From the NCBI GenBank assembly GCA_017405875.1, contig JAFQZM010000038.1, forward strand, positions 21,314 through 85,313: DNA of 64,000 nucleotides, read 5' to 3'. Numbering within the stretch: position 1 is the first letter of the stretch; each line of letters starts with the position of its first letter. The notes below the pieces were generated by a model, which made no database searches, had not been told where the DNA came from, and saw only the letters and a list, made by a program, of their open reading frames with translations. Shown here piece after piece: positions 2,327-56,758 of the stretch. This DNA is from a bacterium. GTDB lineage: Bacteria; UBP6; UBA1177. The position numbers and the translations under genes are program-made.

Positions 2327-2436
2327 TTTGATTGCCGCCGCCTGATCTTGCCGAGATCCCGTGATCACGTAATCCCGGGATCCCGACGGCGCCGAATCGA
2401 GATTCCGATATCTCGAGATTCCGAGATCCCGATAAA
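2327..2436. repeat. GATC-rich palindromic intergenic repeat element (family copy A) between convergent galU and clpB
   Basis: The words CGAGATCCCG, GTGATCACG, CCCGGGATCCCG and CCGATATCTCGAG are each self-complementary or inverted pairs. It holds five GATC sites in about 110 bp. The same words recur at 6031, 7436 and 46341. Confidence 0.5.
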
Positions 2437-6002: not shown

Positions 6003-6030
6003 TTTTTTTCTTGATTTTGTTATTACTGAA

Positions 6031-6065
6031 TCACGAGATCACGGGATTACGAGATCCCGATATTA
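6031..6065. repeat. GATC-rich palindromic repeat element (family copy B)
   Basis: TCACGAGATCACGGGATTACGAGATCCCGATATT shares CGAGATC, GATCACG, GGGAT and CCGATAT words with copies A, C and D. Confidence 0.45.
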
Positions 6066-33422: not shown

Positions 33423-33659
33423 TTAGACGTTTACAACTTCTTTTACTTCCGGAACGAGTCTCTTGAGGTGCTGTTCGATTCCCATTTTGAGAGTCATCTG
33501 ACTCATCGGGCAGCCTGCGCAGTGACCCTGGAGAGCAACTTTTACGATACCGTCATCGCCGATTTCTATAATCTGAACATCGCCGCCGTCTCTCTGGAGC
33601 GCGGGACGTACATCTTCAAGAACTTCTTTAACCTTTTCTTTCCAATCGTTTGCAGCCAT
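33423..33659 (-). CDS. NifU-like Fe-S cluster scaffold/carrier (Nfu domain)
   Basis: GHCAGCPMSQMTL is the CxxC Nfu motif. ATG at 33659 follows GGGAG. Confidence 0.7.
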   Translation of the reverse strand: MAANDWKEKVKEVLEDVRPALQRDGGDVQIIEIGDDGIVKVALQGHCAGCPMSQMTLKMGIEQHLKRLVPEVKEVVNV

Positions 33660-33753
33660 TGTAATCTCCCTAAAATTAAGTAAAAAAACATAAAAACGGC
33701 GAATTATAGGGACTAAAGTGTGCAAGTCAAGTCAAAAGAATGAGGATTTTGCA

Positions 33754-34683
33754 TTAAATCATTTTGAAGGCGAGAAGAGCGGAGTAGGCAATGTAGATAG
33801 CGACAAGGAGAACTCCTGAAACTCGGTCTATCTTTTTTCTGATACCGAAAATGAAAAGGAATAGTGTTACAATCGCGACTGCGGGAAGGTCTCTTGTCAG
33901 TATTTTCGGATTGACTGATACCGGCGTGATAGCACCTGCGATGCCGACAACGCACATTGTGTTGAAAAGGTTCGAGCCGACGACGTTTCCGAATGCGACG
34001 CCGTGTTCGTTCTTCCGTGCGGCAGAGACTGAAGCTGCAAGTTCCGGAAGCGATGTTCCGAGCGCAACTATCGTAAGCCCGATTATGAGTTCGCTGACTC
34101 CGAGCGCAATGGCGATATCCTTTGCCGCCCAGACGAGCGCGCGCGAACTGCCGACGAGAAGAGCCAGACCGAAAATAATCCAGAAAATTGATTTCGGCAG
34201 AGACTCTTTTTTACCTGAATCTTCTTCACTCACTTCCTCTTTTTTGCCGAGAGAGGAGATAACCATTATCGGAATGAATAGAACAAGCATCGTTATCGCG
34301 TTGAGGCGTGAAATAAAGCCGTCGAGAATGAGGAAAACCGTAAGAATTATCGTGCCTGCGAGAAATGGAAGCTCTTTTTTTACGACTGAAAAATCGACTT
34401 TTATAGGATTAACGATTGCTGCAACACCGAGGATAAGAAGGACGTTCGTAATGTTAGAGCCGTATGCGTTGCCGAGTGCGATATCGGGGCTTCCTTCGAA
34501 TGCGGAAACCGCCGAAACGAGCATTTCGGGAGCCGACGTGCCGAAACCGACTATCACCATGCCGATTAAAAACGGAGAAACGCCCAGAACACGCGCCAGA
34601 CCGCACGATCCGTCAACGAATTTATCGGCGCTCCACGCCAGAACTAAAAGTGAAACTATCAGAACTATGCCTTGAAGCCACAT
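33754..34683 (-). CDS. CaCA-family sodium/calcium exchanger (YrbG-like)
   Basis: Two alpha-repeats (GTSAPE and GTSLPE). ATG at 34683 follows GAGGT. The upstream ORF-track extension is repeat read-through. Confidence 0.8.
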   Translation of the reverse strand: MWLQGIVLIVSLLVLAWSADKFVDGSCGLARVLGVSPFLIGMVIVGFGTSAPEMLVSAVSAFEGSPDIALGNAYGSNITNVLLILGVAAIVNPIKVDFSVVKKELPFLAGTIILTVFLILDGFISRLNAITMLVLFIPIMVISSLGKKEEVSEEDSGKKESLPKSIFWIIFGLALLVGSSRALVWAAKDIAIALGVSELIIGLTIVALGTSLPELAASVSAARKNEHGVAFGNVVGSNLFNTMCVVGIAGAITPVSVNPKILTRDLPAVAIVTLFLFIFGIRKKIDRVSGVLLVAIYIAYSALLAFKMI

Positions 34684-34750
34684 TTTTACCTCGCAAAAAA
34701 GAAAAAATCTGTGAATTATGATGAAAACTCTGATTATTGCAAGTTGTTTG

Positions 34751-34812
34751 CCGCCGCTCACTAAGGTCCTTAGGGTCCTTAAGGTCCTTAAAGTCCTTAA
34801 GGTTGGCGGCGG
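34751..34812. repeat. 4.5 tandem copies of the palindromic 9-mer AAGG(T)CCTT, flanked by a GC inverted repeat (GCCGCCG / CGGCGGC)
   Basis: aaggtcctt agggtcctt aaggtcctt aaagtcctt aaggttggc at 34763-34807. Each unit is near self-complementary (CCTTAAGG cores). It lies between the divergent CaCA gene and gspC. Confidence 0.8.
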
Positions 34813-34847
34813 CAAAGATTTTACTCGCGGTGGCGGTCAGACCCTGA

Positions 34848-34878
34848 CAAAATGTCAATTTGCCGAATTGACATTTTG
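34848..34878. promoter_or_regulatory. Perfect 13-bp inverted repeat (5-bp spacer) with TTGACA on both strands; candidate operator and divergent -35 elements
   Basis: CAAAATGTCAATT-tgccg-AATTGACATTTTG. It lies about 90 bp upstream of gspC and about 165 bp upstream of the divergent exchanger gene. Confidence 0.45.
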
Positions 34879-34969
34879 GGTTGTTTTGCAACTTATTGAT
34901 TTTATTGGTAATTTTTTTTGGCACTTGAGTTGCTTAAATAATCGGTTTTTGTTTTTTGCGAGGTGTGCT

Positions 34970-35944
34970 TTGAAAAGCAGAACGGTTTTAAATATAGCTT
35001 TGTTCATCGCGATTGCGGCAGCGGTGCTTTCGTTTATAGGTTTTCTGCTCGCTTTCGTCGTTAAAGGTGAACAGGTTTATGTACCGGTAGGCAAAAATTA
35101 TTATAAAACGCTTGAAGGAACTACGACGGAAGAAAAAAAAGAGAATTTTTATTTCGGCAAAAATCCCAATAATATGAGTTCGGCGAATATTTTTGATTCT
35201 TCGTCGCGTATGATAGCTCTAACCGAGCAGCATAGCACTGAAACGGTTGAAGAGGGCGACATTGTTCCAGAGATGAGTAAGGAAGATATTTATTTTTATC
35301 TTGAAAATCCTGACAAATGCGTGCTTCTGCCGGGTTACGAACTTACCGGAACCATCGTTGCGAAGGACAATGACTTCTCGTTCGCAATTCTCAAAGGCGG
35401 CAAAGGAAGTACTGGCGGAGCGGTCACGAGAACCGGTGCGGAAGTTCAGGATGGCGTAATTCTCGCTTTTGTCTGGAGAAATATCGCGATTTTCAGAACG
35501 ACAAGCGGCATAAAATGCATCGGTGAAGGTGTAGGAGAAGGAAAACCTGTACCTGTTCCGGAAGCGCCTAAAGTTGCAGGCGAACCTCAGCAGCCGAAAG
35601 GTGACGACGACTTCGACATCAGAAATGTCGGACCTAACCAGTATGTCGTAAAACGTGCCGATCTCAACAAGGCAACGGGAAATCTGGGCGCGCTGGCGTC
35701 TCAGGCCCGTATCGTTCCTTCCGCAAAAGACAACGGATTCAAGATTTTTTCGATAGCAAAAGACAGTCTTTACACAAAGATAGGAATACAGAACGGCGAT
35801 GTTCTCAAGTCGATAAACGGCATCGAACTTTCAAGCCCGGACAAGGCGCTCGAGGCTTATTCGAGGCTGCAGAGTGCGTCCAAACTCTCGCTTGACATCG
35901 TAAGAAAAGGGCAGAATGAAACATTGGAATATACGATAGAATAG
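34970..35944 (+). CDS. gspC: Type II secretion system protein GspC-like (N-terminal TM, C-terminal PDZ)
   Basis: TTG at 34970 follows GAGGTG. TM helix IALFIAIAAAVLSFIGFLLAF. C-terminal PDZ GIQNGDVLKSINGIEL. It is immediately upstream of the secretin. Confidence 0.5.
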   Translation: MKSRTVLNIALFIAIAAAVLSFIGFLLAFVVKGEQVYVPVGKNYYKTLEGTTTEEKKENFYFGKNPNNMSSANIFDSSSRMIALTEQHSTETVEEGDIVPEMSKEDIYFYLENPDKCVLLPGYELTGTIVAKDNDFSFAILKGGKGSTGGAVTRTGAEVQDGVILAFVWRNIAIFRTTSGIKCIGEGVGEGKPVPVPEAPKVAGEPQQPKGDDDFDIRNVGPNQYVVKRADLNKATGNLGALASQARIVPSAKDNGFKIFSIAKDSLYTKIGIQNGDVLKSINGIELSSPDKALEAYSRLQSASKLSLDIVRKGQNETLEYTIE

Positions 35945-35953
35945 GAGGCATAA

Positions 35954-38560
35954 ATGCTGAATCTGAAAAAGATAATTTTTCTGACAGCTCTGATCGCTTT
36001 TTCGTTTGTTTATCTTCCGGCTGAGGAAGTGGCGGAAGCTGACAATGTGAAAGTTCCGATCAATCTCAACAGCAAATTTAAACCGATAAATTCAGGCAAA
36101 AAGTTTAACAACAATTTGAAGCTCGGCAGGCCTGTTGCAGCGGAAAAGAAAGCTGATGAAGAGAATAAGGATGAAAAAAAGGACGAAAAGCAGGAAGAGA
36201 ACAAACTGGCAGAAAATGCGGCTCAGCCGAAAAACAACAGTAATAACAGCGATGTAAGAACGGTAACGCCTCCGCAGCCGAAAACGATTCTCAACAAAGA
36301 ACAGCCGAAAACTCCGGAAGACAACAAACTTCTGGATGCCGTAAAAGTCGAAATCAACGAACCGAAAGCGGCAAATATGGATCTCAAAATCAGGCTCGAC
36401 TTCAAAGACGAAGAGCTTATGAATGTCGTTAAACTCTTTTCCGATCTGCTCCAGAAAAATTTCATAATTCCGGAAAATCTGGGCAAGGCGAAAATCAATC
36501 TTCTCTCTCCGCAGAAAGTTACGGTCAGAGAGGCTTATAAAACGTTCCTCACCCTTCTTGCAGTCAACGATTTCAGTGTTTCTGAGGACGGTTCCTACAC
36601 GATAATCACGAAGGAAAAGAATATTCCGGAGATGAAAATCCCTTTTTACAAGGGAACTGACGTGCCCGATCTTTTCAAGATGGTTGCGACCATTATGAAG
36701 TTTGAATACGTCACGGCAGGCGACATTGACAAGGTTTTGAAGCTTTTCAGAGACAAAGGTGCGACTTCGGTCGTTTTCGACGACAAGACTTTGATCGTTG
36801 TCGATTACGCGGCTAATATCAGAAAAATCATGACTCTGGTCAAAGAGCTCGACCAGCCTTCCGAATCGGATAAGGCAGAGCTTTACTTCATCAAACTCAA
36901 CCACGTTCTTGCAGCAGATGCCCGCAAAATCATTGAAGATATTTTTAAGGATTTCTCCAAAAAGGGAACCAAGAAAGGGAAAAACAACGACAATACTCCT
37001 TCTCTCGGCGGTGTAGGAAAACAGGCTGAAGGAAACAACAATAACAACAACAGGTTTCCGCCGCGTCCTCCGTTTCCTCCTAACTGGGGCAGTCAGGATG
37101 ACGGCGAAGGTTTGAGTGAAACTTACATCCATATCGTTGCCGACGAAAGAAGCCAGCAGATAATCGTTCTGTGCAACAAGGCGACTTACAATCTGATTCT
37201 TCAGGTCGTTCAGAATATTGACCGCGAAGTCGAAGGCGAGGGCGAAATCCATGTCGTAAAGCTTCAGAACGCAAAAGCTGAAGATATGCTTAAGACATTG
37301 AATTCACTGTCGAAAAACAAAAAAGCGTCAGGTTCTTCCAAAAGCGGAAACAAAGGAACAGACGTTTTTGAAGGCGACGTTCAGATTTCTGCAAACGAAT
37401 CGACGAACTCCCTCGTTGTCGTTTCTTCGCTGCAGGATTTCAGGAACCTCAAAAAAGTTGTTGAAAAACTCGATGTAAAGCGCAAACAGGTTTTTGTCGA
37501 AGCGGCTATTCTCGAAGTCAGCATAGACAACGGTCTGGAATACGGCAACGCATACAGTGCGATGGGTTATGAAGTTACGATCGCCGGCGAAAAGGTTCCT
37601 CTTTTCTTCGGAAAGGCTCTCTCTTCGCCGACTCCCGGACTCGTTGCCGGCATGGTTGGTGCTTCGGTTGACGGAACAGCCGGACTTCCCGGTCTTTCCC
37701 TTGTAGACGGAATTCCTTCGATCGGACTCATTTTGAACGCGGCGCAGAACGATTCGACGGTAAACGTAGTTTCGACACCGCACCTTCTCACGACCGATAA
37801 CGAAGAGGCCGAGATCACAGTCGGTGAAACGGTTCCGTTCCCGTCGGGAAACATTCTTACCAGCACGACAGGAAGTACGATAACCTACACCCGTGAAGAC
37901 GTTGCGCTCAAACTCAAAATAAAACCGCAGATCAACGAATCGGGCTACATGACTCTTGAAATCAATCAGGAGATGACGGAACTCGGCGCGCAGACTGACT
38001 ACGGTTATAAAACGACCAAAAGACAGGCGAAGACCAAGATCAATGCTGAAAACGAACAGACGATAGTCATCGGCGGACTTATGAAGGATACGGTCACTGA
38101 AGGCGAGAACAAGATCCCGATCCTTGGTGACATTCCGGTTATCGGAAATCTTTTCAAGTATAAAAAAATCAATAAAACCAAAGTAAACCTTCTTCTTATC
38201 CTCACTCCTCACGTAGTTGACAGCAAAGAGGATTTTGAGCGCATTCTCCGTAAGAAAATGGAGGAACGTGATGAGTTCGCGAGAAAGTATTACGGCGGTG
38301 ACACCACGTTCGAAGAAACGGTTTACCTCGACAAAAGACGCGGAGCGCTTCTTTCGGTCGTAAATGCTGTCAACACTCAGCAGGCTTTCGAAAAAGAGGA
38401 ACTGAAAAGGATCGAAGCGGCTAACAAGAAGGAAAATTCGATAATGGTCACTCCGGACGGCGAAGAAAAACTCATCGAAAATTCTGATGAATCTTCCAAA
38501 AAAGGGAAGTCAAAAGATGCCGAAGACGAACTTGTTCCCGATATTGACGAAGAGGATTAG
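35954..38560 (+). CDS. gspD: Type II secretion system secretin GspD
   Basis: 868 aa with N0-N3-like domains, a secretin core (GETVPFPSG...VIGGLMKD...IPILGDIPVIGNLFK) and a C-terminal acidic tail. AGGAGG RBS. Confidence 0.8.
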   Translation: MLNLKKIIFLTALIAFSFVYLPAEEVAEADNVKVPINLNSKFKPINSGKKFNNNLKLGRPVAAEKKADEENKDEKKDEKQEENKLAENAAQPKNNSNNSDVRTVTPPQPKTILNKEQPKTPEDNKLLDAVKVEINEPKAANMDLKIRLDFKDEELMNVVKLFSDLLQKNFIIPENLGKAKINLLSPQKVTVREAYKTFLTLLAVNDFSVSEDGSYTIITKEKNIPEMKIPFYKGTDVPDLFKMVATIMKFEYVTAGDIDKVLKLFRDKGATSVVFDDKTLIVVDYAANIRKIMTLVKELDQPSESDKAELYFIKLNHVLAADARKIIEDIFKDFSKKGTKKGKNNDNTPSLGGVGKQAEGNNNNNNRFPPRPPFPPNWGSQDDGEGLSETYIHIVADERSQQIIVLCNKATYNLILQVVQNIDREVEGEGEIHVVKLQNAKAEDMLKTLNSLSKNKKASGSSKSGNKGTDVFEGDVQISANESTNSLVVVSSLQDFRNLKKVVEKLDVKRKQVFVEAAILEVSIDNGLEYGNAYSAMGYEVTIAGEKVPLFFGKALSSPTPGLVAGMVGASVDGTAGLPGLSLVDGIPSIGLILNAAQNDSTVNVVSTPHLLTTDNEEAEITVGETVPFPSGNILTSTTGSTITYTREDVALKLKIKPQINESGYMTLEINQEMTELGAQTDYGYKTTKRQAKTKINAENEQTIVIGGLMKDTVTEGENKIPILGDIPVIGNLFKYKKINKTKVNLLLILTPHVVDSKEDFERILRKKMEERDEFARKYYGGDTTFEETVYLDKRRGALLSVVNAVNTQQAFEKEELKRIEAANKKENSIMVTPDGEEKLIENSDESSKKGKSKDAEDELVPDIDEED

Positions 38561-38562
38561 TC

Positions 38563-40257
38563 ATGGCAGCAAGGCGCAAAATAGGTGAACTTCTCGTCGA
38601 AAAAGGCTATATCGACGAGGCTGCGCTTTCCGAAGCCCTTGCAGCGCAGCACGCAGATAGAATGGGAACCGGCAAAATCGGTCAGCTTCTCGTTTCGGAA
38701 GGCAAAGTTACCGCTGAGCAGGTGACGGAAGTCTTTTCTGAGCAGAGCGGGATAAAACTCGTTACAGATGAAGACTTGAAAAAGCTTGATCCGGCAGTAC
38801 TCGGCGAATTTCCGATAGCTCTGGCGAAAAAATTCAAAGCGCTTCCTCTTTATGCCGATACTGACCTTCATGTCGTCATCACCGACATAGATATGCTGCT
38901 TTTCAACCAGCTTTTCATGATTTACCGCAAAAACGTCGTTTCGCTTCTTGTAACTCCGACCAAAATCAACGACATGATAAATCAGGCTTACAGCAGCGTT
39001 GACAACAAGGAGGAGGCTCTTAACGCCGAGGAGTTCGGCAAAATGGCGGACGAGGACGATACGATCCCCGACCTTATCGACTCCAACGACGACGCGCCTA
39101 TTATCAAGTTCGTGAACAACACGATCGCAAAGGCTGTAAAGGAAAAAGCGAGTGATATTCACTTTGAATCCTACGAAGACGAAGTTATCGTCCGTTTCAG
39201 AAAAGACGGCAAACTTTCAGTTGTTCAGCGCGTTCCGAAGGCTGCTCAGGCCGGTCTCATCACGAGAATCAAGATTATGAGCCGGCTCAACATTTCTGAA
39301 AAAAGGCTGCCGCAGGACGGAAACATCAAGGTCAAAATCGCCGGAAACGACATCGACTTCCGTGTTTCGACTCTTCCGAGCGTCCACGGCGAATCGATAG
39401 TTCTCCGTATTCTGGATAAAAGATCACAGAAACTTTCTCTTGACGAAAGCGGTTTCACGAAACGCGACCTTGAGATGATGAGAAAGATAATCCACATGAA
39501 ACACGGAATTTTTCTCGTCACCGGACCTACCGGAAGCGGTAAAACGACGACGCTTTATTCTGCTTTAACCGAGATAAATTCGCCTGATGTCAAGATAATC
39601 ACGGTCGAAGACCCGGTCGAGTATCAGATCAAAGGTGTTAACCAGATTCACATCAATTCCAAGATCGGTCTTACTTTCGCAAGCGGTCTCCGTTCGATTC
39701 TCCGTCAGGACCCGGATATCATCATGGTCGGTGAGATCCGTGATAAAGAGACGGCTGATATTGCTATCAACGCGTCGTTAACCGGTCACCTTGTTTTCTC
39801 GACGCTCCACACGAACGATGCTCCGACGGCATTCACCCGACTTATCGATATGGGAATCGAACCTTTCCTTATTTCTTCAACTGTCGTCGGCGTTCTTGCC
39901 CAGAGACTTGTAAGAAAGCTCTGCCCCGCCTGCAAAGAGGCTTACTATCCGCCGGCGGCTATTCTTGAAGAACTCGGACTTGATCCGAAAGAATACGCAA
40001 ATCATCCGTTCTACAAGGCTGTAGGATGCCCTGAATGCGGATATTCGGGATATAAGGGAAGAAGCGGTATTTTCGAACTTCTGATGATCGACGAAGAGCT
40101 GCGTCGTGCAGTTGTTGCACGTCAGGACGCAAGCGATATCCGCAAAATAGCCGCTTCAAACGGAATGCTCAATCTCCGTGAAGACGGTGCACTCAAGGCG
40201 ATAAAGGGAATAACCTCGCCCGAAGAAGTCCTTCTCAGAACGCAGGAGGATAAGTAA
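38563..40257 (+). CDS. gspE: Type II secretion/MSHA-type ATPase GspE with an N-terminal tandem MshEN (c-di-GMP-binding) domain
   Basis: Walker A GPTGSGKTTT, Asp/His boxes and a CPAC...CPEC tetracysteine. N-terminus has KIGELLVEKGYIDEAALSEALAAQ and KIGQLLVSEGKVTAEQVTEVFSEQ. Confidence 0.85.
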   Translation: MAARRKIGELLVEKGYIDEAALSEALAAQHADRMGTGKIGQLLVSEGKVTAEQVTEVFSEQSGIKLVTDEDLKKLDPAVLGEFPIALAKKFKALPLYADTDLHVVITDIDMLLFNQLFMIYRKNVVSLLVTPTKINDMINQAYSSVDNKEEALNAEEFGKMADEDDTIPDLIDSNDDAPIIKFVNNTIAKAVKEKASDIHFESYEDEVIVRFRKDGKLSVVQRVPKAAQAGLITRIKIMSRLNISEKRLPQDGNIKVKIAGNDIDFRVSTLPSVHGESIVLRILDKRSQKLSLDESGFTKRDLEMMRKIIHMKHGIFLVTGPTGSGKTTTLYSALTEINSPDVKIITVEDPVEYQIKGVNQIHINSKIGLTFASGLRSILRQDPDIIMVGEIRDKETADIAINASLTGHLVFSTLHTNDAPTAFTRLIDMGIEPFLISSTVVGVLAQRLVRKLCPACKEAYYPPAAILEELGLDPKEYANHPFYKAVGCPECGYSGYKGRSGIFELLMIDEELRRAVVARQDASDIRKIAASNGMLNLREDGALKAIKGITSPEEVLLRTQEDK

Positions 40258-41486
40258 TGCCGCTTTTTGCCTACAAAATAGTCGATGCAAACGGCAAAGA
40301 GAAGAAGGGAACGATCGAAAGTCCGAACAAAGCGGCAGTAAAAACGAAATTCCTTTCGGAAGGCTACTACATCACCGAAATCAGCGAAAAATCGGGTGCA
40401 CAGGGTTTCAGTCTCGATTTTTTGCGGAAAATGTTCTCTTTCGGCGCAAAAAAAGTGCCGCTTGACGAAGTTGCCTCGATGACAAGGCTTTTAGCTACGC
40501 TCCAGAAGGCGAAGATTCCGCTTGTCGAAGCGATCGACGCGGTCGCGCAGCAGCAGGAAAATCCTATAATGAAGGACGCCCTCATCATCATCAAGGGAAA
40601 GATGAACGAAGGTTACAGCTTCAGTAAAAGCGCGCGTGAATTCCCCAATATTTTTGATGACTTGTTCTGTAACATGATTGCGGCAGGAGAGGAATCGGGT
40701 GCGACTGACAAAGTTCTTATGAGACTTGCCGGATTCATGGAATCACAGGTCGATCTCAAAAACAAAGTCAAAAGTGCGATGACTTACCCGATAGTCCTCA
40801 TGATTGTCGCTATTCTGGTTGTCGGTGTTCTTTTCACGGTCGTAATCCCGAAACTTTCCAAAATGTTCGAAGATGTCAAAATGTCTCTGCCGATTCAGAC
40901 GAAAATCCTTCTCTGGCTTTCTGGTTTCATCGGAAGCTGGTGGTGGCTCATAGCGCTCATGATTTTCGGCGGTATCGTCGCTTTCAACAAATATGTCAAA
41001 ACTCCGAAAGGGGAAATATGGTGGAGCAGAGTCAAGATCAATGCTCCTGTTCTGGGCAGAGTCAACAGACAGGTTGCTATCAGCCGTTTCGCACAGACTC
41101 TTTCGACTCTTCTTCACTCCGGTGTTCCGATTCTGAACGCACTTGATATCGTCAAAAAGATCATTGACAACAAAATTCTTGAAAACGCTGTCGGAGTTGC
41201 CCGCGAAAACATCAAGGAAGGTGAATCGATCGCTCTTCCTCTCAAAAGAAGCGGCGAATTTCCGCCCATCGTAATCCAGATGATAGCGATCGGCGAGCAG
41301 AGCGGCGAACTTGAAGAAATGCTTGAAACTCTGGCTAATTCATACGAAAAGGAAGTCACATACACGATGGAAAAACTCACTTCGATGCTCGAACCGATGA
41401 TGATCGTTGCTCTTGCAGGAGTCATCGGCTTCATCGTTTTCTCGGTCGTCATGCCGATCCTCCAGCTCAACGACGCAGTCGGATAA
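40257..41486 (+). CDS. gspF: Type II secretion inner-membrane platform protein GspF
   Basis: 409 aa with two GspF/PilC repeats and 3 TM helices. ATG overlaps the gspE stop. Confidence 0.85.
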   Translation: MPLFAYKIVDANGKEKKGTIESPNKAAVKTKFLSEGYYITEISEKSGAQGFSLDFLRKMFSFGAKKVPLDEVASMTRLLATLQKAKIPLVEAIDAVAQQQENPIMKDALIIIKGKMNEGYSFSKSAREFPNIFDDLFCNMIAAGEESGATDKVLMRLAGFMESQVDLKNKVKSAMTYPIVLMIVAILVVGVLFTVVIPKLSKMFEDVKMSLPIQTKILLWLSGFIGSWWWLIALMIFGGIVAFNKYVKTPKGEIWWSRVKINAPVLGRVNRQVAISRFAQTLSTLLHSGVPILNALDIVKKIIDNKILENAVGVARENIKEGESIALPLKRSGEFPPIVIQMIAIGEQSGELEEMLETLANSYEKEVTYTMEKLTSMLEPMMIVALAGVIGFIVFSVVMPILQLNDAVG

Positions 41487-46340: not shown

Positions 46341-46370
46341 TCGTTATCTCGATATCTCGATATTTCGAGA
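46341..46370. repeat. Short palindromic repeat element (family copy D) between convergent tsaD and pilR
   Basis: TCGTTATCTCGATATCTCGATATTTCGAGAT shares the CTCGATAT and CGAGAT words with copies A-C. This copy has no GATC. Confidence 0.4.
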
Positions 46371-47801
46371 TTAGTCTTTCTCGTCTTTAATGCCGAGTTT
46401 GCTCATGCGGTATCTGAGCATTCTTTCAGTCAAATTAAGCAGAACGCAAGTGTCGTGACGGTTGTAATTTGTCTTTTTAAGTGCTTTAATTATATAGCGT
46501 TTTTCAATATCTGCCAAAATTTCGTCAAGATCTACGTTGTGAGAGAGGTCAACTTCGAAAGGATTGGATTTTGCGGTTTGCGGTTGAGCCATTGAAGGCA
46601 TCGTCTTTTCAAAGTGGGTCTCGGTAATAAGCCCGTCTTTCGCGAAAATTGTGCCGCGCTCGACGATGTTTTTGAGTTCCCTGACGTTACCTGGGAATGT
46701 GTAGTGATTCAAAAAGTTGAGAGTTTCTTCGGAAAATCTGAAATTTGTCCCCGTTTTCTTTGAAAACTGATCCAGAAACATGTTGGCAAGCGGCATTATG
46801 TCGGCGCGTCTTTCGGCAAGCGGCGGGATGTAAAGCTCGATTACATTCAGGCGGAAATATAAGTCTTCACGGAACTTTCCTTTTTTGATCTGCTCCTGAA
46901 GATTTTTGTTTGTTGCCGCGATAAGGCGTACTCCGGTCGGTATTTTTTCGGTGCCGCCGACTCTTGTGAAAACGCGCTCTTGAAGTACGCGGAGCAGTTT
47001 TACCTGCATGTTTTCACCGAGTTCGCCGATTTCATCCAGGAAAAGTGTGCCGTTTCCGGCTACTTCGAAGTAACCTTTTTTTGTCTGGTATGCACCGGTG
47101 AAAGAGCCTTTTTCATGACCGAAAAGTTCGCTTTCAAGAAGGTTTTCTGGGATCGCGCCGCAGTTTATCGGATACCACGGAAGTTCGCCGCGGCCGCTGT
47201 GTTTGTGGATGAAGTTGGCGAGAACTTCCTTTCCCGTTCCGCTGTCGCCGGTGATGAGAACCGTGCTGTCGGTCGGAGCGATGCGGAGTGCGAGTTCGAG
47301 GATTTTTTTCATCTGCGGGCTCTGCGCCACGATTCCGGTCTCTTCTGAAATATTCTGAAAATCGGTGTCAATCCGCTTTGTTTGCTGCACGGTTTTTGCG
47401 GGTTCGCTGTTTTTCTGCGTCTGTGCCGCCGCAACGCACTTTTTAACGATGTCGCGGATTTCTGCGACGTTGAAAGGTTTGCTGACATAGTCGACTGCAC
47501 CGAGTTCGATCGCCTTTATCGCCTGCTCGGTCGAAGCGTATGCGGTGATGACGATGACCTGTGATTTCGGGCTTGTGTGGAGAAGTTCGTTCAGAAGATC
47601 GATTCCGTCAATTGCCTCAGGCATATTGTAATCCATTAGAATTACTGTGAATTTTTCTTCTTTCAGTTTGTTTAGAGCGATTTCTCCGTTTTCTGCCGTC
47701 GTAACGTCATAGCCGTCTTTTTTCAGCAGAATCTGCAGAAACTGACGCATGCTGAGTTCGTCGTCAATAACTAAGATTTTAACTTTTTCGGATATCTCCA
47801 T
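46371..47801 (-). CDS. pilR: Sigma-54-dependent response regulator (NtrC family), PilR-like
   Basis: REC domain (ILVIDDE...D), an AAA+ sigma-54 activator with GSFTGA (GAFTGA variant) and a C-terminal Fis-type HTH. It overlaps the upstream sensor kinase by ATGA. Confidence 0.8.
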   Translation of the reverse strand: MEISEKVKILVIDDELSMRQFLQILLKKDGYDVTTAENGEIALNKLKEEKFTVILMDYNMPEAIDGIDLLNELLHTSPKSQVIVITAYASTEQAIKAIELGAVDYVSKPFNVAEIRDIVKKCVAAAQTQKNSEPAKTVQQTKRIDTDFQNISEETGIVAQSPQMKKILELALRIAPTDSTVLITGDSGTGKEVLANFIHKHSGRGELPWYPINCGAIPENLLESELFGHEKGSFTGAYQTKKGYFEVAGNGTLFLDEIGELGENMQVKLLRVLQERVFTRVGGTEKIPTGVRLIAATNKNLQEQIKKGKFREDLYFRLNVIELYIPPLAERRADIMPLANMFLDQFSKKTGTNFRFSEETLNFLNHYTFPGNVRELKNIVERGTIFAKDGLITETHFEKTMPSMAQPQTAKSNPFEVDLSHNVDLDEILADIEKRYIIKALKKTNYNRHDTCVLLNLTERMLRYRMSKLGIKDEKD

Positions 47802-49372
47802 TATTTTGCCTTGGGTTTAAAATCAATAATAATTCTGGCACCTTTTTCGGTATTTGTCGCTTTTATCGAGCCGCCGTGCTTTGTGACTATTCTGTAAACG
47901 AGAGCGAGCCCCAAACCGGTTCCGCGCTTTTTTGTAGAAAAAAACGGATCAAAAATTTTGTCGATATTTTTTTCATTGAAACCAGAGCCTGTGTCATCGA
48001 AGTAAAGTTTGAAAGAATTGTCGGTCACTTCGGAAAATATGTCGATTTCACCTTCGTCATTCATCTCCTCAGCGCTGTTCGTCATGATGTTCCAGAACAC
48101 CTGTTTCAACTTTTCTGCGTCTCCGAGAACCGAAAACTCATCAACTTTGCAGGTGATTTTGACTTTCGGATGACCTAATTTGAAAAGAGTGACAACGTCG
48201 CTCAGGATCGAGCTCGGAACGCATTCCATCAGGGTATAGGAAGTTTCTTCAGTGTACCTGAAAAGAGAGTCAAGCAGGGTTTTGACGCGTGTTCCTTCAC
48301 GCCGGATGATGTCAATGAGCTCGGTCGTGTCAGATTCTGGCTGGATTTCCTGAATCTCGGAAAACATGAGTTCGCTCGCTCCGATGAGGCTCGTGAGGGG
48401 ATTTTTTATCTCGTGGGCGATAGTTGCCGTGAGTCTTCCGATCGTAGCCAGTTTTTCCTGAAGCTCGAAACTTTCCTCCTGCTTCCTGATGGCGGTAAGG
48501 TCTGAAAATATAACGACTTTCTGGTTTTCTATGTACGGCATTACCGTGTAGGAAAGCCAGATACCGTCAAATTTTTTCTCCGACCACGCGCCGTTTGAAG
48601 CAGTGTCTTTAGTTGCTTCGGCTAAGAATTTATCGAGAATGTTTTCGAACTGTTCCGCGTATCTGTTCACGTAAAATTTCGTATTTTCGTCAAAAATTAC
48701 GATACCGATGTTTATCTGCGAAAATATTGCGAAAAAGTGTTTTTCCATCTCTTTGTTTCTGCGCGTTGATTCGATCAGGGAGCTGTTAGCCTGACGGAAA
48801 CTTTTCGTGATCCTGCTTGCTACGAAACCTGTGAAAGAAAAGAAGAGAAGGTAAGTGAAAAGACGCGAAAAGTACGATTCCCACGAAGCAGAGTAGGTTT
48901 TCACAAGTTCTGAAGTTATGAGCGGAAGGAAGGAAAACTTTACGGAAACGCCTTGCAGAAGCAGCAGAAAGAAAGCGTAAAGCGTCGTGATTATTGCACC
49001 TTTTTCACGCATCAGAATGCCGGCATAGATGATGTTTATGATTATTACGTAAAGGTATGGCGAGCTTATACCGCCGCTTATGTACGAAACCAGAACCCAG
49101 AACGTGATTTCTACGACAAACTGCAAGTGTGCGAAAAGAGTTAGATATTTTTCACGAATGAATCGGTTGACAGTCAGTGAAACTATGTTGAAAACAAGCA
49201 GAAAAAATGCTGAAATGAGAAAAAGTTTGTTTGCAAATGAAAAAATATCGTTGTTTTCGCTTATGAAAGGAAAAACGAAAAACGAAAATATGACGGTGAA
49301 AATGAAGAAAAATCGTATTATGAGATAGTAACTTAGGTGATTGCGGAATTCGTCCGCCGAGAGAAGGTTCAT
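47801..49372 (-). CDS. pilS: Membrane sensor histidine kinase, PilS-like
   Basis: About 6 N-terminal TM helices. H-box ATIAHEIKNPLTSL. ATP-lid DDTGSGF and GTGLGLALV. Confidence 0.7.
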   Translation of the reverse strand: MNLLSADEFRNHLSYYLIIRFFFIFTVIFSFFVFPFISENNDIFSFANKLFLISAFFLLVFNIVSLTVNRFIREKYLTLFAHLQFVVEITFWVLVSYISGGISSPYLYVIIINIIYAGILMREKGAIITTLYAFFLLLLQGVSVKFSFLPLITSELVKTYSASWESYFSRLFTYLLFFSFTGFVASRITKSFRQANSSLIESTRRNKEMEKHFFAIFSQINIGIVIFDENTKFYVNRYAEQFENILDKFLAEATKDTASNGAWSEKKFDGIWLSYTVMPYIENQKVVIFSDLTAIRKQEESFELQEKLATIGRLTATIAHEIKNPLTSLIGASELMFSEIQEIQPESDTTELIDIIRREGTRVKTLLDSLFRYTEETSYTLMECVPSSILSDVVTLFKLGHPKVKITCKVDEFSVLGDAEKLKQVFWNIMTNSAEEMNDEGEIDIFSEVTDNSFKLYFDDTGSGFNEKNIDKIFDPFFSTKKRGTGLGLALVYRIVTKHGGSIKATNTEKGARIIIDFKPKAK

Positions 49373-50562
49373 CCGACAGCTTTACCCATGCTGAACATCG
49401 GCAGATACATAGCGACCATCATTGTTCCGACGATGCCGCCGATTACGACCATGAGGATAGGCTCAATCATGCTGGTAAGGCCGTCGACCGCGACATCTAC
49501 TTCCTCTTCATAGAAGTCTGCGATCTTGTTGAGCATCGTATCCATAGCACCGGTTGCTTCTCCGACGCCGATCATCTGAACGACCATTGACGGGAAAACT
49601 TTGGCTTCGGTAAGCGGGGTCGTCATGTCGCTTCCTTCGATAACTTTCTGTCTGACGAACATAATAGCCTTTTCAATCATCATGTTTCCTGAAGTTCTGG
49701 AAACAACTTCGAGACCGTCAACAAGCGGAACACCGGAACTTACGAGGGTTCCCAGGGTTCTCGTGAATCTTGCAACGGCAGATTTTCTGATGAGGTCGCC
49801 GACTATCGGAGCGTTGAGGGCGTATCTGTGGACACCGAAACGGAATTTCGGGTTTTTCATCGCCGTTCTGAATGCGATAACGATGCCGACAAGACCTGCG
49901 ATTATGAAAAGAATGTTCGACTGCACCCATTCACTCATATCGACAATAACCTGAGTAAGTCCGGGAAGTTGCTGGCCGTTACTCATGAAGAGCTGAGCAA
50001 ACGTAGGAACAACGTAGTAAAGCAGGACGATCGTGATTGCGATTGTAGCCGTGAGGACGATTGCAGGATATTTCATTGCGCTCTTGATTTTTGCCGTTGT
50101 TGCAGCGTTTTTTTCAAGGAATATCGCAAGACGGTCAAGAATCGTATCCAAGATACCGCCGACTTCGCCTGCCGCAACGAGGTTTACGTAAAGGTCGGTA
50201 AAAACTTTGTGGTCTTTAAGTGCATCACTAAGAGATTTACCTTCTTCGACCGAATTCTTGACCTTTCTCAAAATGCTTCTGAAGTAAGGTGTTTCAGACT
50301 GAGCGGCAAGAATCTCCAGACCCTGAATGATCGAAAGACCGGCGTTGATCATTGTGGCGAACTGACGTGTGAAGATAACAAGCTCTTTCGGCTTCATTCC
50401 GCCGCCGCCGAGCTCTATCTTTGTCCAGTCTTTTTTCAGGGAATCGACTCTGACACCCTGTGCCAGTAAGGCTTGTCTTGCTCCCTTTTCGTCATCGGCA
50501 TCGACTGAACCTTTGACGGTTTCGCCCTTTTTGTTGACACCGGCATACTTGTAAAAAGGCAT
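49369..50562 (-). CDS. pilC: Type IV pilus inner-membrane platform protein PilC
   Basis: MPFYKYAGVNKKGETVKGSVDADDEKGARQALLAQG with two GspF-type repeats, lying downstream of pilB-pilT. Confidence 0.85.
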   Translation of the reverse strand: MPFYKYAGVNKKGETVKGSVDADDEKGARQALLAQGVRVDSLKKDWTKIELGGGGMKPKELVIFTRQFATMINAGLSIIQGLEILAAQSETPYFRSILRKVKNSVEEGKSLSDALKDHKVFTDLYVNLVAAGEVGGILDTILDRLAIFLEKNAATTAKIKSAMKYPAIVLTATIAITIVLLYYVVPTFAQLFMSNGQQLPGLTQVIVDMSEWVQSNILFIIAGLVGIVIAFRTAMKNPKFRFGVHRYALNAPIVGDLIRKSAVARFTRTLGTLVSSGVPLVDGLEVVSRTSGNMMIEKAIMFVRQKVIEGSDMTTPLTEAKVFPSMVVQMIGVGEATGAMDTMLNKIADFYEEEVDVAVDGLTSMIEPILMVVIGGIVGTMMVAMYLPMFSMGKAVG

Positions 50563-50565
50563 TTT

Positions 50566-51663
50566 TTACCTCCTCGTTTGGTTTGTTCTTGCGAGAATAG
50601 CCTGAAATTCATCCAGATGCGGAACCAGCGACAAAGCGTCTTCCATGCTGATGACGTCGTTTCTTACCAGTCTGGCGAGATCCTGCGTCATAGTCTGCAT
50701 TCCGCTGTCGTTCTGACCCGACTGCATACTGGAATATATCTGCTGAAGCTTTTCTTCACGTATAAGGTTTCTGATAGCTGCGTTCGGAACCATGACTTCG
50801 CAGGCGATGACACGACCGCCGCCGTATTTTTTCGGGATAAGCGTCTGTGCGACGATGCCCTGAAGAACGAAGCTGAGCTGTGCTCTGACCTGATTCTGCT
50901 GGTTTACAGGGAACATATCGATGATACGGTTGATTGTTTCGATCGTGCTGTTCGTGTGGAGCGTTGCAAGTGCCAAGTGGCCTGTTTCAGAAACGCTGAG
51001 CGCAGTCGACATGGTCTCGATATCACGGATCTCACCGATGAGAACGATATCGGGGTCCTGCCTCAGAACAACGCGGAGAGCCGATGCGAAAGATCCCGTG
51101 TCGGCGCCGACTTCACGCTGGTTGACGATGCAGTTTTTATGCGAGTGGATGAACTCGATAGGATCTTCGATCGTGACGATGTGACCGTGACGGTTGCGGT
51201 TGATGTAGTCAACCATTGAAGCAAGTGTCGTCGATTTTCCGCTTCCTGTAGGTCCGGTGACGAGAATAAGTCCTTTCGGTTTCTTTGCGAGCTCTTCGAC
51301 TATCGGCGGAAGACCGAGTTGTCTGAAATCAAGGATTTTGTAGGGAATTACACGGATTGCGGCACTGACTGCGCCTCTCTGCATGAATACGTTCGCTCTG
51401 AAACGGCTCAGATTTTTGACACCGAAGCTGAGGTCGAGTTCATTCTTTTCCTCAAAAACCTTTTTCTGCTTTTCTGTCAGAATGCTGTATGCCAGCTTTT
51501 TCGTATCTACCGGAGTGAGCGGCGGCACGTTTACTGGACGCAGATTTCCGTCGATTCTGAGCTGGGGCGGCGAACCGCTGGTAATGTGAAGATCGGATGC
51601 TCCCTGTTCAATCATCAGAGAGAGCAGATCCTGCAGAGAAACTGTAGCATTTGGATTTTCCAT
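50566..51663 (-). CDS. pilT: Type IV pilus retraction ATPase PilT
   Basis: 365 aa. GASDLHITSGSPPQLRIDG N-terminus, Walker A GPTGSGKSTT and AIRNLIRE. Confidence 0.85.
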   Translation of the reverse strand: MENPNATVSLQDLLSLMIEQGASDLHITSGSPPQLRIDGNLRPVNVPPLTPVDTKKLAYSILTEKQKKVFEEKNELDLSFGVKNLSRFRANVFMQRGAVSAAIRVIPYKILDFRQLGLPPIVEELAKKPKGLILVTGPTGSGKSTTLASMVDYINRNRHGHIVTIEDPIEFIHSHKNCIVNQREVGADTGSFASALRVVLRQDPDIVLIGEIRDIETMSTALSVSETGHLALATLHTNSTIETINRIIDMFPVNQQNQVRAQLSFVLQGIVAQTLIPKKYGGGRVIACEVMVPNAAIRNLIREEKLQQIYSSMQSGQNDSGMQTMTQDLARLVRNDVISMEDALSLVPHLDEFQAILARTNQTRR

Positions 51664-51672
51664 TTTTTACCT

Positions 51673-56670: not shown

Positions 56671-56706
56671 TCACGAAATAATTTTCAAATCTTGATATCT
56701 AACAAT

Positions 56707-56758
56707 CACTAAATCTCTAAACTCCCTAAATTCCCTAAATTCCTTAAGCTCCCTAATA
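56707..56758. repeat. About 6 degenerate tandem 8-9-bp units (TCCCTAAAT) between the convergent giant paralogs
   Basis: cactaaat ctctaaac tccctaaat tccctaaat tccttaagc tccctaata. It shares the TCCTTAAG word with the array at 34763. Confidence 0.6.

What the first reader, a model, noticed from the sequence alone, without database searches (positions are those of the whole stretch)
34684..34969. Divergent regulatory region with a tandem array of 9-bp palindromes and a perfect 13-bp inverted repeat carrying TTGACA on both strands
Between the Na+/Ca2+ exchanger and gspC sit four and a half head-to-tail copies of AAGG(T/A)CCTT. Each copy is itself a palindrome with a CCTTAAGG core. The array is bracketed by GCCGCCG and CGGCGGC. 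About 40 bp further on is CAAAATGTCAATT-N5-AATTGACATTTTG, which places a consensus -35 hexamer (TTGACA) on each strand, facing the two divergent genes. This looks like a multi-site operator or architectural element controlling both promoters. The 9-bp phasing means successive sites rotate around the helix. A related 8-9-bp array (TCCCTAAAT x6, sharing TCCTTAAG) lies between the convergent giant paralogs at 56707-56758.
Basis: seen in the sequence. Interest (0 to 1): 0.55.

Follow-up and report, generated by a model that had tools for sequence, protein, structure and literature searches.

The report
Sigma-54 enhancer-promoter plus a hypervariable hairpin repeat
The gap holds an ordinary sigma-54 promoter with its upstream activator site driving a type II secretion operon in an uncultured rumen bacterium, while the eye-catching 9-base repeat array is a dispensable, fast-changing hairpin repeat rather than an operator.

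Summary
The sequence features are real. There is a 4.7-copy 9-nt array (34762-34803) between perfect 11-nt GC-rich clamps, and a perfect 13-nt inverted repeat (34848-34878). The interpretation mostly fails.

The window comes from the rumen candidate phylum UBP6. Across about 20 relatives, the conserved parts are:
- an exact sigma-54 promoter (TGGCAC-N5-TTGC, 34919-34933) facing gspC;
- the inverted repeat, always 66 nt upstream of that promoter;
- an IHF-like block between them.

The same repeat-plus-promoter module recurs in front of the gspG pseudopilin operon, and next to gspC even where the exchanger is not the neighbour. I read the repeat as an enhancer (UAS) for a sigma-54 activator protein, not as two -35 boxes. 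An NtrC-type activator gene lies in the window.

The exchanger has its own conserved sigma-70-type promoter (TTGCAA-16-CATAAT, 34742-34715).

The 9-nt array exists only in one strain cluster. At the same position other species carry unrelated 8-nt arrays between similar clamps, inverted versions, or nothing. Look-alike clamped arrays occur at other intergenic sites. It behaves like a REP/BIME-type dispersed palindromic repeat whose function, if any, is unknown.

The 408-aa ORF through the gap is a chance open frame.

The parts
33754..34683 (-). Ca2+/Na+ antiporter (CaCA family) gene, ATG at 34683
   Evidence: Pfam Na_Ca_ex E=7e-65. NCBIfam TIGR00367 scores 247.6, above its cutoff of 179.65.
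34688..34706 (-). Exchanger leader with Shine-Dalgarno sequence (GAGGT). Left arm of the outer 19-nt inverted repeat.
   Evidence: repeat I1, 18/19 complementary; sequence.
34715..34742 (-). Sigma-70-type promoter of the exchanger, TTGCAA-16-CATAAT
   Evidence: Promoter scan. There is one equivalent hit at the same place in all 11 orthologous gaps that have the exchanger.
34747..34757 (.). Left GC-rich clamp TTTGCCGCCGC
   Evidence: Perfect 11-nt inverted repeat with 34806-34816.
34762..34803 (.). 9-nt tandem array, 4.7 units of AAGGTCCTT type. With the clamps it folds into a hairpin (-22.8 kcal/mol, z = -7.4).
   Evidence: Found only in this strain cluster. Replaced, inverted or absent in relatives.
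34806..34816 (.). Right GC-rich clamp GCGGCGGCAAA
34845..34878 (+). Candidate upstream activating sequence (enhancer) for a sigma-54 activator. The conserved core is TGACAAAATGTCAATTTGCCGAATTGACAT (34845-34874); the feature runs to 34878 to take in both arms of the 13-nt inverted repeat. The dyad centre is about 82 nt upstream of the predicted start site.
   Evidence: Conserved in 25 distinct modules at a fixed 66 nt from the promoter. Paralogous gspG copies match at 27-31 of 32 positions.
34889..34901 (-). IHF-consensus match AATCAATAAGTTG (WATCAANNNNTTR) between the enhancer and the promoter
   Evidence: Exact in 7 of 12 orthologous gaps and one mismatch in the others. Binding is inferred only.
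34918..34934 (+). Sigma-54 promoter TTGGCACTTGAGTTGCT (-24 GG, -12 GC)
   Evidence: Only exact TGGCAC-N5-TTGC in the window, with 0.05 expected. Nearly invariant in all 25 distinct modules. Matches the Geobacter RpoN consensus TTGGCACGGTTTTTGCT (PMC2725144).
34946..34969 (+). gspC leader with Shine-Dalgarno sequence GAGG (34960-34963). Right arm of the outer inverted repeat.
34970..41486 (+). gspC (TTG start at 34970, ends 35944), gspD (35954-38560), gspE (38563-40257), gspF (40257-41486)
   Evidence: Pfam. NCBIfam GspC_delta scores 188.8, above its cutoff of 150, aligned from residue 13. tblastn to orthologues starts at residue 1.
46371..49372 (-). Two-component pair: an NtrC-type sigma-54 activator (receiver, Sigma54_activat and HTH_8 domains; 46371-47801) and a PilS-like histidine kinase (47801-49372). 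Candidate, unproven, regulator of the module.
   Evidence: Pfam. GSFTGA and ESELFGH motifs. NCBIfam gives only generic matches below the equivalog cutoffs.
2334..2432 (+). Second member of the clamped-array family: GCCGCCGCC-TGATCTTG followed by an 8-nt array (CCGNGATC, 10.5 units). Lies between convergent genes.
   Evidence: Very similar to the gspC-upstream arrays of L014 and L047.
56704..56756 (.). 9-nt array (CTAAAYTCC) between convergent giant genes. One-unit copy-number polymorphism between strains.

Best explanation
The gap (34684-34969) contains two independent promoters and one unrelated insertion-like repeat.

1. gspCDEF promoter. The operon is transcribed from a sigma-54 (-24/-12) promoter at 34918-34934. 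The 13-nt inverted repeat is the core of an enhancer. A sigma-54 activator (bEBP) would bind there, about 82 nt upstream of the start site. The AT-rich, IHF-like stretch between them would let the DNA loop, so the activator's ATPase can open the promoter complex.
- Shown here: the motifs, their invariant 66-nt spacing, their conservation, and their reuse at gspG.
- Inferred: the binding, the looping, and the identity of the activator. The candidate is the NtrC-type regulator at 46371-47801.

2. Exchanger promoter. The exchanger is transcribed from its own sigma-70-type promoter (TTGCAA-16-CATAAT) on the other strand.

3. The array. Between the two promoters, and probably untranscribed, lies a GC-clamped quasi-palindromic 9-nt array. 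It is one member of a lineage-specific family of short-period (8-9 nt) intergenic arrays with a GCCGCC-(N)RATYTT head. At this position the family member turns over rapidly by replacement, inversion between the clamps, and deletion. It is not needed by either promoter. I regard it as a REP/BIME-like repeat that is structural or selfish, not a gene-specific operator.
For: Promoter:
- TGGCAC-N5-TTGC occurs exactly once in the window, against 0.05 expected. It lies 36 nt before the gspC start.
- In 25 distinct modules from about 20 species or strains, the most conserved blocks are the UAS and TGGCA..GAGTTGCTT.

Spacing and reuse:
- The distance from the inverted repeat to the promoter is 66 nt in every copy.
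- Two genomes (L017, L019) carry a second module in front of gspG. Five more gspG-type modules came from the metagenome scan.
- Within a genome the paralogous modules match at 27-31 of 32 positions in the UAS and 19-20 of 21 in the promoter block. Their flanks match at only 4-8 of 22.
- The gspG operon encodes gspG, gspJ, gspK, gspM and related genes.
- A metagenome scan for the repeat found sigma-54-linked copies only at gspC and gspG.
- The repeat stays with gspC where the neighbour is not the exchanger (L020, L026).

Activator: an NtrC-type gene with a Sigma54_activat domain (E=6e-69) is in the window.

Exchanger promoter: it is conserved in 11 of 11 orthologues.

Array:
- It is absent from all other species.
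- Orthologous positions hold GATYCCGN, TCGAAATN, CGTTACGN or CGTTATAA arrays, or nothing in L011 and L013.
- Inversions are shown by alignment: 40/46 reverse-complement against 29/46 forward, and 56/57 against 32/47.
- The same head and the same unit types occur at non-orthologous loci.

ORF: the open frame through the gap is not conserved.
Against: - No rpoN gene was seen in the sequence held. That sequence is only a small part of any genome.
- No transcription start sites or binding data exist for this uncultured lineage.
- The IHF match is exact in only 7 of 12 gaps, and the pattern carries little information.
- The cognate activator is unknown. The one in the window sits beside type IV pilus-like genes and matches no NCBIfam equivalog.
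- The dispersed-family claim rests on three non-orthologous clamped loci plus several unclamped arrays in about 156 kb. No mobilising enzyme was found.
- GC clamps persist in most species. Unit types recur across loci. The conserved UAS has the same period-8 design as the variable arrays. Together these leave room for some function of the arrays.
Confidence: 0.78

Rival explanations
1. The 9-nt array is a multi-site operator or architectural element. The inverted repeat supplies a TTGACA -35 box to each of the two divergent sigma-70 promoters, so one element controls both genes.
For: - Both features are statistically real.
- In one relative (L011) the array region is deleted, and the repeat's TTGACA lies exactly 17 nt from the exchanger's CATAAT box. 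The hexamer can therefore act as a -35 box in that arrangement.
Against: - In the window no -10 box lies 16-18 nt from either TTGACA.
- The exchanger's conserved promoter is about 115 nt away.
- gspC has a conserved sigma-54 promoter.
- The repeat occurs without the exchanger and in front of gspG.
- The array is not conserved in any other species.
Confidence: 0.04
2. The clamped array has a function of its own that does not depend on its exact sequence. It could be a cruciform that absorbs or blocks the negative supercoiling generated between divergent promoters. Or it could be a platform of tetramer boxes at 8-9 nt spacing for an oligomerising DNA-binding protein.
For: - The GC clamps and the hairpin potential are kept in most species although the inner sequence changes.
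- The same unit types recur at different loci.
- The conserved UAS itself reads as four period-8 units (TGACAAAA TGTCAATT TGCCGAAT TGACATTT).
Against: - The array is absent in L011, L013, L020, L026 and at all gspG modules, while the promoters are unchanged.
- The hairpin is weak in several species (z = -1 to -2).
- Family members also lie between convergent genes, where there is no promoter to insulate.
Confidence: 0.13
3. The array is a phase-variation device. It would work either through slippage that changes copy number or through a programmed invertible segment between the clamps.
For: - A second allele exists among contigs whose exchanger protein is identical. It has about 2 units, probably inverted, plus a mosaic allele.
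- Inversions occurred between species.
- Another array in the window (56704) shows a one-unit copy-number polymorphism.
Against: - Eight full-length contigs carrying the window allele all have the same copy number and orientation.
- The units are imperfect, which hinders slippage.
- The invertible piece is only 48-70 nt, too short for recombinase synapsis, and it contains no promoter.
- No recombinase gene is adjacent.
- The array lies upstream of both promoters' core elements.
Confidence: 0.04
4. The 13-nt inverted repeat is not an activator site. It would instead be a hairpin terminator, or the operator of a conventional repressor.
For: - The terminator scan flags it: 14-pair stem followed by GGTTGTTTTG.
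- In L017, L019 and L049 the gspG copy lies directly after the gspF stop codon.
Against: - At gspC no gene reads into it.
- The stem is AT-rich with only 3 GC pairs.
- The fixed 66-nt phasing to a sigma-54 promoter in all 25 distinct modules is what an enhancer predicts, not a terminator.
- gspG copies in L041, L051 and L062 are not preceded by gspF.
Confidence: 0.07
5. The gap is coding. GspC would start at ATG 34718 (408 aa), and the array would encode a KVLRVLKVLKVLKV repeat.
For: - The frame is open for 85 codons upstream of the TTG.
- Public gene calls report products of 407-408 aa.
Against: - In 8 of 12 orthologous gaps an in-frame stop lies 10-26 codons upstream of the TTG.
- L004 carries 1-nt indels.
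- There is no Shine-Dalgarno sequence before 34718, whereas GAGG lies 6 nt before the TTG at 34970.
- Orthologue alignments and the NCBIfam GspC_delta model begin at the TTG-start protein.
Confidence: 0.02

Closest known systems
Enhancer-dependent sigma-54 promoters of the NtrC/NifA/PilR type (glnAp2, nifH, pilA)
   Same: - -24 GG / -12 GC promoter with the canonical TGGCAC-N5-TTGC.
- A dyad-symmetric upstream site about 80 nt from the start site at fixed phasing.
- An AT-rich, IHF-like stretch in between.
- An NtrC-type response-regulator activator encoded nearby.
- PilR/RpoN control of filament-machinery genes is documented (PMC8657755, PMC2725144). RpoN affects T2SS-2 gene expression in Plesiomonas (PMC9743648).
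   Different: - The target is a complete type II secretion system split into two modules (gspCDEF and gspGHIJKLM) in an uncultured phylum.
- The site sequence (TGACAAA-TGTCAA-N9-TTGACA, readable as four 8-nt units) matches no activator site I can name.
- The activator is unidentified.
- Desulfobacterales relatives of the secretin show no such promoter.
REP / BIME / REPIN-type dispersed intergenic palindromic repeats
   Same: - Short imperfect palindromes in intergenic DNA.
- Several copies at unrelated loci, including between convergent genes.
- Presence or absence, and orientation, differ between close relatives.
- Mosaic composition.
   Different: - The body is a tandem array of 8-9 nt units whose sequence differs between copies. 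Only the GC clamps and a short head (GCCGCC-(N)RATYTT) are shared.
- No GTAG/CTAC-type head.
- No RAYT transposase was seen, though it was not searched genome-wide.
- Copy number per genome is unknown.
Arrays of short repeats bound by ribbon-helix-helix proteins (ParG tetramer boxes with 4-bp AT-rich spacers; omega-protein heptads). Recalled from my own knowledge, not tested.
   Same: Contiguous short units (7-8 bp) in direct or inverted orientation, each a 4-nt core plus an AT-rich spacer.
   Different: No such protein is linked to these arrays. The unit sequence is not conserved at orthologous promoters. This is a resemblance in design only.
Contingency loci (simple-sequence repeats in promoters that vary by slippage)
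   Same: A tandem short-period repeat located between promoter elements. A sister array (56704) does vary by one unit between strains.
   Different: The units are imperfect. No unit-number variation was seen within the allele. The array lies outside both core promoters.

Membership tests
Sigma-54 (-24/-12) promoter | GG and GC dinucleotides separated by exactly 10 nt within TGGCAC-N5-TTGC, oriented toward and close to a gene start | tested here: met
   Exact match at 34919-34933, 36 nt before the TTG start. It is the only one in 64 kb, with 0.05 expected.
Sigma-54 (-24/-12) promoter | Conservation of the element in orthologous and paralogous upstream regions | tested here: met
   Present in all 25 distinct modules. 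It matches at 19-20 of 21 positions between gspC and gspG copies within a genome.
Sigma-54 (-24/-12) promoter | The genome encodes sigma-54 (rpoN) | tested here: inconclusive
   No RpoN-box peptide was found in the window or in any held locus. Only a small fraction of any genome is held.
Sigma-54 (-24/-12) promoter | The genome encodes at least one enhancer-binding AAA+ activator with a GAFTGA-type loop | tested here: met
   The gene at 46371-47801 has a Sigma54_activat domain (E=5.6e-69), with GSFTGA and ESELFGH motifs.
Sigma-54 (-24/-12) promoter | Transcript 5' end about 12 nt downstream of the GC, dependent on rpoN | not testable with these tools
   No expression data are available here.
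Activator (bEBP) upstream activating sequence | Repeat-symmetric site roughly 70-150 nt upstream of the start of a sigma-54 promoter, at fixed helical phasing | tested here: met
   The dyad centre (34863) is about 82 nt upstream of the predicted start. The 66-nt offset to TGGCAC is invariant in every copy.
Activator (bEBP) upstream activating sequence | The same site is reused at other sigma-54 promoters of functionally linked operons | tested here: met
   A second module lies before gspG in L017 and L019, and five more came from metagenomes.
Activator (bEBP) upstream activating sequence | Bound by a specific activator protein | not testable with these tools
   This needs EMSA, footprinting or a reporter assay.
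   The promoter scan finds none for either TTGACA in the window. The feature is met only in L011, after deletion of the array.
Operator or iteron array controlling the flanking genes | The repeat unit is conserved at the orthologous promoter in related species | tested here: not met
   AAGGTCCTT units occur only in the window's strain cluster. Other species have different units or none.
Phase-variable simple-sequence repeat | Unit-number polymorphism among otherwise identical strains | tested here: not met
   Eight full-length contigs carrying this allele are identical in the array. By contrast, the 56704 array differs by one unit.
Site-specific invertible promoter switch | An inverted-repeat-bounded segment of at least about 100 bp that carries a promoter, a recombinase nearby, and both orientations within a population | tested here: not met
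   The segment is 48-70 nt and has no promoter. No recombinase is among the neighbours. Inversions were seen only between species. Read-level heterogeneity could not be tested.
REP/BIME-like dispersed palindromic repeat | Multiple copies at non-orthologous intergenic sites sharing sequence features | tested here: met
   The head GCCGCC-(N)RATYTT followed by an 8-nt array occurs at window 2334, at L031:2110 and at the gspC-upstream site. Unit types are shared between loci. The sample is small (about 156 kb).
REP/BIME-like dispersed palindromic repeat | Associated RAYT (Y1) transposase and a conserved tetranucleotide head | not tested
   No genome-wide protein survey was possible.
GspC N-terminal coding extension | The open frame and the protein similarity extend upstream of the TTG in orthologues | tested here: not met
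   In-frame stops lie 10-26 codons upstream in 8 of 12 gaps. Alignments start at residue 1 of the TTG-start protein.

The most novel reading that the evidence does not exclude
The GC-clamped 8-9 nt arrays could be an undescribed class of dispersed, cassette-like DNA elements in candidate phylum UBP6.
- Conserved GC-rich inverted clamps and a short head would frame an inner array of tetramer-box units.
- That inner array could be exchanged among a small set of unit types, inverted, or lost.
- The arrays share the period-8 design of the conserved secretion-system enhancer.
- They might therefore be swappable protein-binding or cruciform modules that rewire or insulate neighbouring promoters, rather than inert repeats.
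Probability: 0.12. Interest if true: 0.7.

Novelty: new member of a known kind. Interest (0 to 1): 0.33.

Why it matters
- Regulation: this gives the first concrete regulatory prediction for a secretion machine in an uncultured rumen phylum. Two operons of a type II secretion system would share one sigma-54 enhancer-promoter module, so secretion would be switched by a signal-dependent activator.
- Annotation: public gene calls extend GspC by 34-84 residues through non-coding DNA, and the analysis shows where gspC really starts.
- Method: a conspicuous palindromic repeat next to a promoter turned out to be the least conserved part of the region.
- The array family: it is a small curiosity. It could be useful as a strain marker and would be worth a genome-wide census.

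Tried and rejected
- Rfam: a permissive scan of 33500-36000 and a scan of the whole window at gathering threshold found nothing, and there are no tRNAs. No known RNA explains the hairpins.
- Coding reading of the gap: rejected.
- The outer 19-nt inverted repeat as the ends of an invertible or mobile element: rejected. The right half of the gap has the same orientation in all relatives, and the arms are simply the two genes' similar leaders.
- Searches for more copies in the window: none found for the 13-nt repeat, the leader motif or the sigma-54 promoter.
- Viral-contig scan for the AAGGWCCTT array: no hit.
- Sigma-54 promoters near the distant Desulfobacterales secretin relatives: none.
- Upstream of the pilB-like operon: there is a sigma-70-like promoter and no module.
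- Second locus comparison (L019, L050, L078): an attempt to compare a filled and an empty site failed because synteny breaks there.
- A loose GG-N10-GC scan was uninformative.
- NCBIfam could not name the activator.
Full report
**1. The observation**

The described sequences are all present.
- TRF reports a period-9 array of 4.7 copies at 34762-34803. A two-unit pattern matches three overlapping times against 0.04 expected.
- The array is bracketed by a perfect 11-nt inverted repeat, TTTGCCGCCGC / GCGGCGGCAAA (34747-57 / 34806-16).
- The 13-nt inverted repeat CAAAATGTCAATT-N5-AATTGACATTTTG is perfect at 34848-60 / 34866-78. It is unique in the window, with 0.02 expected.
- The units are AAGGTCCTT, AGGGTCCTT, AAGGTCCTT, AAAGTCCTT and AAGG. 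The centre base is always T.
- The clamped array folds as a DNA hairpin of -22.8 kcal/mol (z = -7.4). The whole gap folds with z = -8.3.

**2. Genes and organism**

- On the minus strand is a CaCA-type Ca2+/Na+ antiporter gene (33754-34683).
- On the plus strand are gspC (PDZ domain), gspD (secretin), gspE and gspF.
- GspC from the TTG at 34970 passes the NCBIfam GspC_delta cutoff (188.8 against 150) and aligns from residue 13.
- A scan of one genome per species with GspD returned ten relatives at 83-96% identity (plus a partial contig, L021). All are rumen MAGs, including "bacterium UBP6_UBA1177" and "UBA1196". The window therefore belongs to the uncultured candidate phylum UBP6.

**3. What is conserved in the gap**

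I aligned the gap from 12 orthologous loci. I then extended the set with strain-level contigs and metagenome hits.

The right half is conserved almost base for base:
- the inverted repeat;
- an AT-rich spacer;
- TTTTTTGGCACTTGAGTTGCTTAAATAATCGG;
- the leader down to the TTG start.

TGGCAC-N5-TTGC is the canonical sigma-54 -24/-12 element. The Geobacter RpoN consensus is TTGGCACGGTTTTTGCT (PMC2725144). In the window the exact pattern occurs once, at 34919-33, against 0.05 expected.

The offset from the TGTCAA of the repeat to TGGCAC is 66 nt in every copy examined.

Between the two lies CAACTTATTGATT. On the minus strand this reads AATCAATAAGTTG, an exact match to the IHF consensus WATCAANNNNTTR. 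It is exact in 7 of 12 gaps.

**4. The module is reused**

- In L017 and L019 a second copy of the repeat plus promoter lies directly after gspF. It sits in front of a gene whose product begins MFRNFVKAL...KGFSLLEIMV and matches the Pfam T2SSG and N_methyl families.
- The operon behind it encodes GspG-, J-, K-, PilN-like and M-type proteins.
- A metagenome scan with TGTCAAWTTGNCGAWTTGRCA gave 61 loci. Thirteen have the sigma-54 promoter at +66. All thirteen are either gspC-type (8) or gspG-type (5).
- Within one genome the two modules match at 27-31 of 32 positions in the repeat region and 19-20 of 21 in the promoter block. They match at only 4-8 of 22 in the upstream flank and about half in the spacer.
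- In L020 and L026 the gene upstream of gspC is not the exchanger, yet the repeat and promoter are intact.

The repeat therefore belongs to the gsp promoters. Its position, with the dyad centre about 82 nt upstream of the predicted start, together with its fixed phasing and its reuse, is what an enhancer (UAS) for a sigma-54 activator looks like.

An NtrC-type activator lies at 46371-47801, next to a PilS-like kinase and pilB/T/C-like genes. It has receiver, Sigma54_activat (E=6e-69) and HTH_8 domains, and a GSFTGA loop. It is a candidate regulator, nothing more, because NCBIfam gives only generic matches. PilR-RpoN control of type IV pilus genes and an RpoN effect on T2SS expression are precedents (PMC8657755, PMC9743648). 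No rpoN gene is in the sequence held.

**5. The TTGACA hexamers**

- Neither hexamer has a -10 box at 16-18 nt.
- The exchanger has its own promoter on the minus strand, TTGCAA-16-CATAAT (34742-34715). Exactly one equivalent hit (mostly TTGAAA-16-CATAAT) occurs at the same place in all 11 orthologues that have the exchanger.
- In L011 the array and the usual -35 box are deleted, and the repeat's TTGACA ends up 17 nt from CATAAT.

**6. The array**

The AAGGTCCTT array is found only in contigs of the window's own strain cluster. It is absent from viral contigs.

*Strain level.* Among contigs encoding an identical exchanger protein there is a second allele (L002, L004).
- It has about two units, probably inverted, and a longer perfect hairpin (-27.1 kcal/mol).
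- It has a duplicated 21-nt unit and a strongly diverged left flank.
- There is also a mosaic of the two alleles (L005).

*Species level.* The same position, between similar clamps (CGCCGCC ... GGCGGCG), holds different things:
- 8-nt arrays of GATYCCGN in L014 and L047;
- TCGAAATN in L012, L016, L018, L056 and L069;
- CGTTACGN in L017, L019 and L050;
- CGTTATAA-like units in L015 and L031;
- nothing in L011 and L013, where one clamp remnant is left.

*Inversions.* The clamp-bounded segment is inverted between close relatives.
- L019 against L017 aligns at 40/46 as the reverse complement and 29/46 forward.
- L018 against L056 aligns at 56/57 as the reverse complement and 32/47 forward.

*Position.* The array lies upstream of both predicted start sites, so it is probably not transcribed.

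An element that is replaced, flipped or lost while both promoters stay unchanged is not their operator.

**7. A family of arrays**

Short-period arrays are a feature of intergenic DNA in this lineage.
- The window has period-8 arrays at 2351-2432, 6030-6065 and 46341-46368, and a period-9 array at 56704-56756. All are intergenic.
- The element at 2334 starts with GCCGCCGCC-TGATCTTG-CCGAGATC... It closely resembles the gspC-upstream elements of L014 and L047.
- L031 has CGTTACGN and clamped TCGAAATN arrays at a locus 11 kb from gspC.
- L050 has a TCCCTAAAY array, the 56704 unit type, between GGCGGCG and CGCCGCC.
- The 56704 array differs by exactly one 9-nt unit between strains with identical flanks. 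The 2351 array is invariant in seven strain contigs.

The picture is a REP/BIME-like dispersed repeat with conserved GC clamps, a short head and a variable tandem body. How the body is exchanged is unexplained. Candidates are gene conversion between copies, hairpin template switching, or a mobilising enzyme. Some structural role, such as a cruciform or a protein platform, is not excluded.

The conserved enhancer itself can be read as four period-8 units (TGACAAAA TGTCAATT TGCCGAAT TGACATTT).

**8. The open frame**

ORF 34718-35944 (408 aa) runs through the gap, and public assemblies call it. It is a chance open frame for four reasons.
- In 8 of 12 orthologous gaps an in-frame stop lies 10-26 codons upstream of the TTG.
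- L004 has 1-nt indels.
- GAGG lies 6 nt before the TTG at 34970.
- Homology starts at the TTG-start protein.

**9. Verdict**

- The main finding is a textbook-style sigma-54 enhancer-promoter module, newly recognised in front of both operons of a type II secretion system in an uncultured rumen phylum.
- The array is a hypervariable member of a lineage-specific repeat family.
- Interest is modest. The unresolved biology of the clamped arrays is the only part that could turn out to be new.

Noticed in passing
window 56704-56756: The 9-nt array (CTAAAYTCC) between the convergent giant genes is a true VNTR. Contigs L093 and L097 carry exactly one extra unit, with identical flanks. An array of the same unit type, flanked by GGCGGCG and CGCCGCC, occurs at another locus in a relative (L050:716-749).
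   Followed up: partly
window 34688-34706 and 34946-34964: The two divergent genes have nearly identical U-rich leaders, TTTTT(C/G)TTTTTTGCGAGGT. These form an 18/19 inverted repeat that spans the whole gap. The similarity is also seen in other species. It could be a shared translational element or a result of gene conversion.
   Followed up: partly
window 34718-35944; loci L001-L009: Public gene calls give GspC as 408, 407, 397 or 358 aa in different strains. The non-coding gap happens to be an open frame, so these are mis-annotated starts.
   Followed up: yes
window 2334-2432, 6030-6065, 46341-46368; L031:2014-2110: Further period-8 intergenic arrays use the units CCGNGATC, TCGATATC and CGTTACGN. 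These are the same unit types that replace the 9-nt array upstream of gspC in other species. The 2351 array is identical in seven strain-level contigs.
   Followed up: partly
L011:2842-3014: In this relative the array and the usual -35 box are deleted. The enhancer's TTGACA sits 17 nt from the exchanger's CATAAT box, so the enhancer half-site doubles as a -35 box there.
   Followed up: partly
L028, L029, L052, L053, L060, L072, L075, L083 and L032-L038 etc. (metagenome hits): In unrelated organisms the enhancer pattern turns up inside long period-8 tandem arrays (AATTTGTC GATTTGTC AATTTGCC GATTTGGC ...). It also turns up inside a repeated element, GAAACTTGAGAGTGTCAATTTGTCGATTTGACAAATTGAAAAGTTTCAATTTCACAAATTGAAAG, sometimes twice at 86-nt spacing. 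Their nature is unknown.
   Followed up: no
window 46371-53430 (-): A pilB-pilT-pilC-pilS-pilR-like cluster has a sigma-70-like TTGACG-17-TATAAT promoter upstream. No pilin gene follows the pilR-like activator. Its sigma-54 target must lie elsewhere, and the gsp modules are the only sigma-54 promoters seen.
   Followed up: partly
L002:4860-5000 (minus strand of the locus), L004, L005: Within one species the left half of the gap exists as two strongly diverged alleles plus a mosaic. A 21-nt unit, GGCGGC(A/C)AAGA(TTTT/CCTC)A(A/C)TCGC, is present once or twice, although the flanking exchanger protein is identical. This points to recombination or template switching at the hairpin.
   Followed up: partly
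window 5993-6030: A canonical intrinsic terminator (GGGCTTCatcacGAAGCCC followed by T8) precedes the 6030 array. The lineage therefore uses ordinary terminators, and the arrays are not needed for that role.
   Followed up: no
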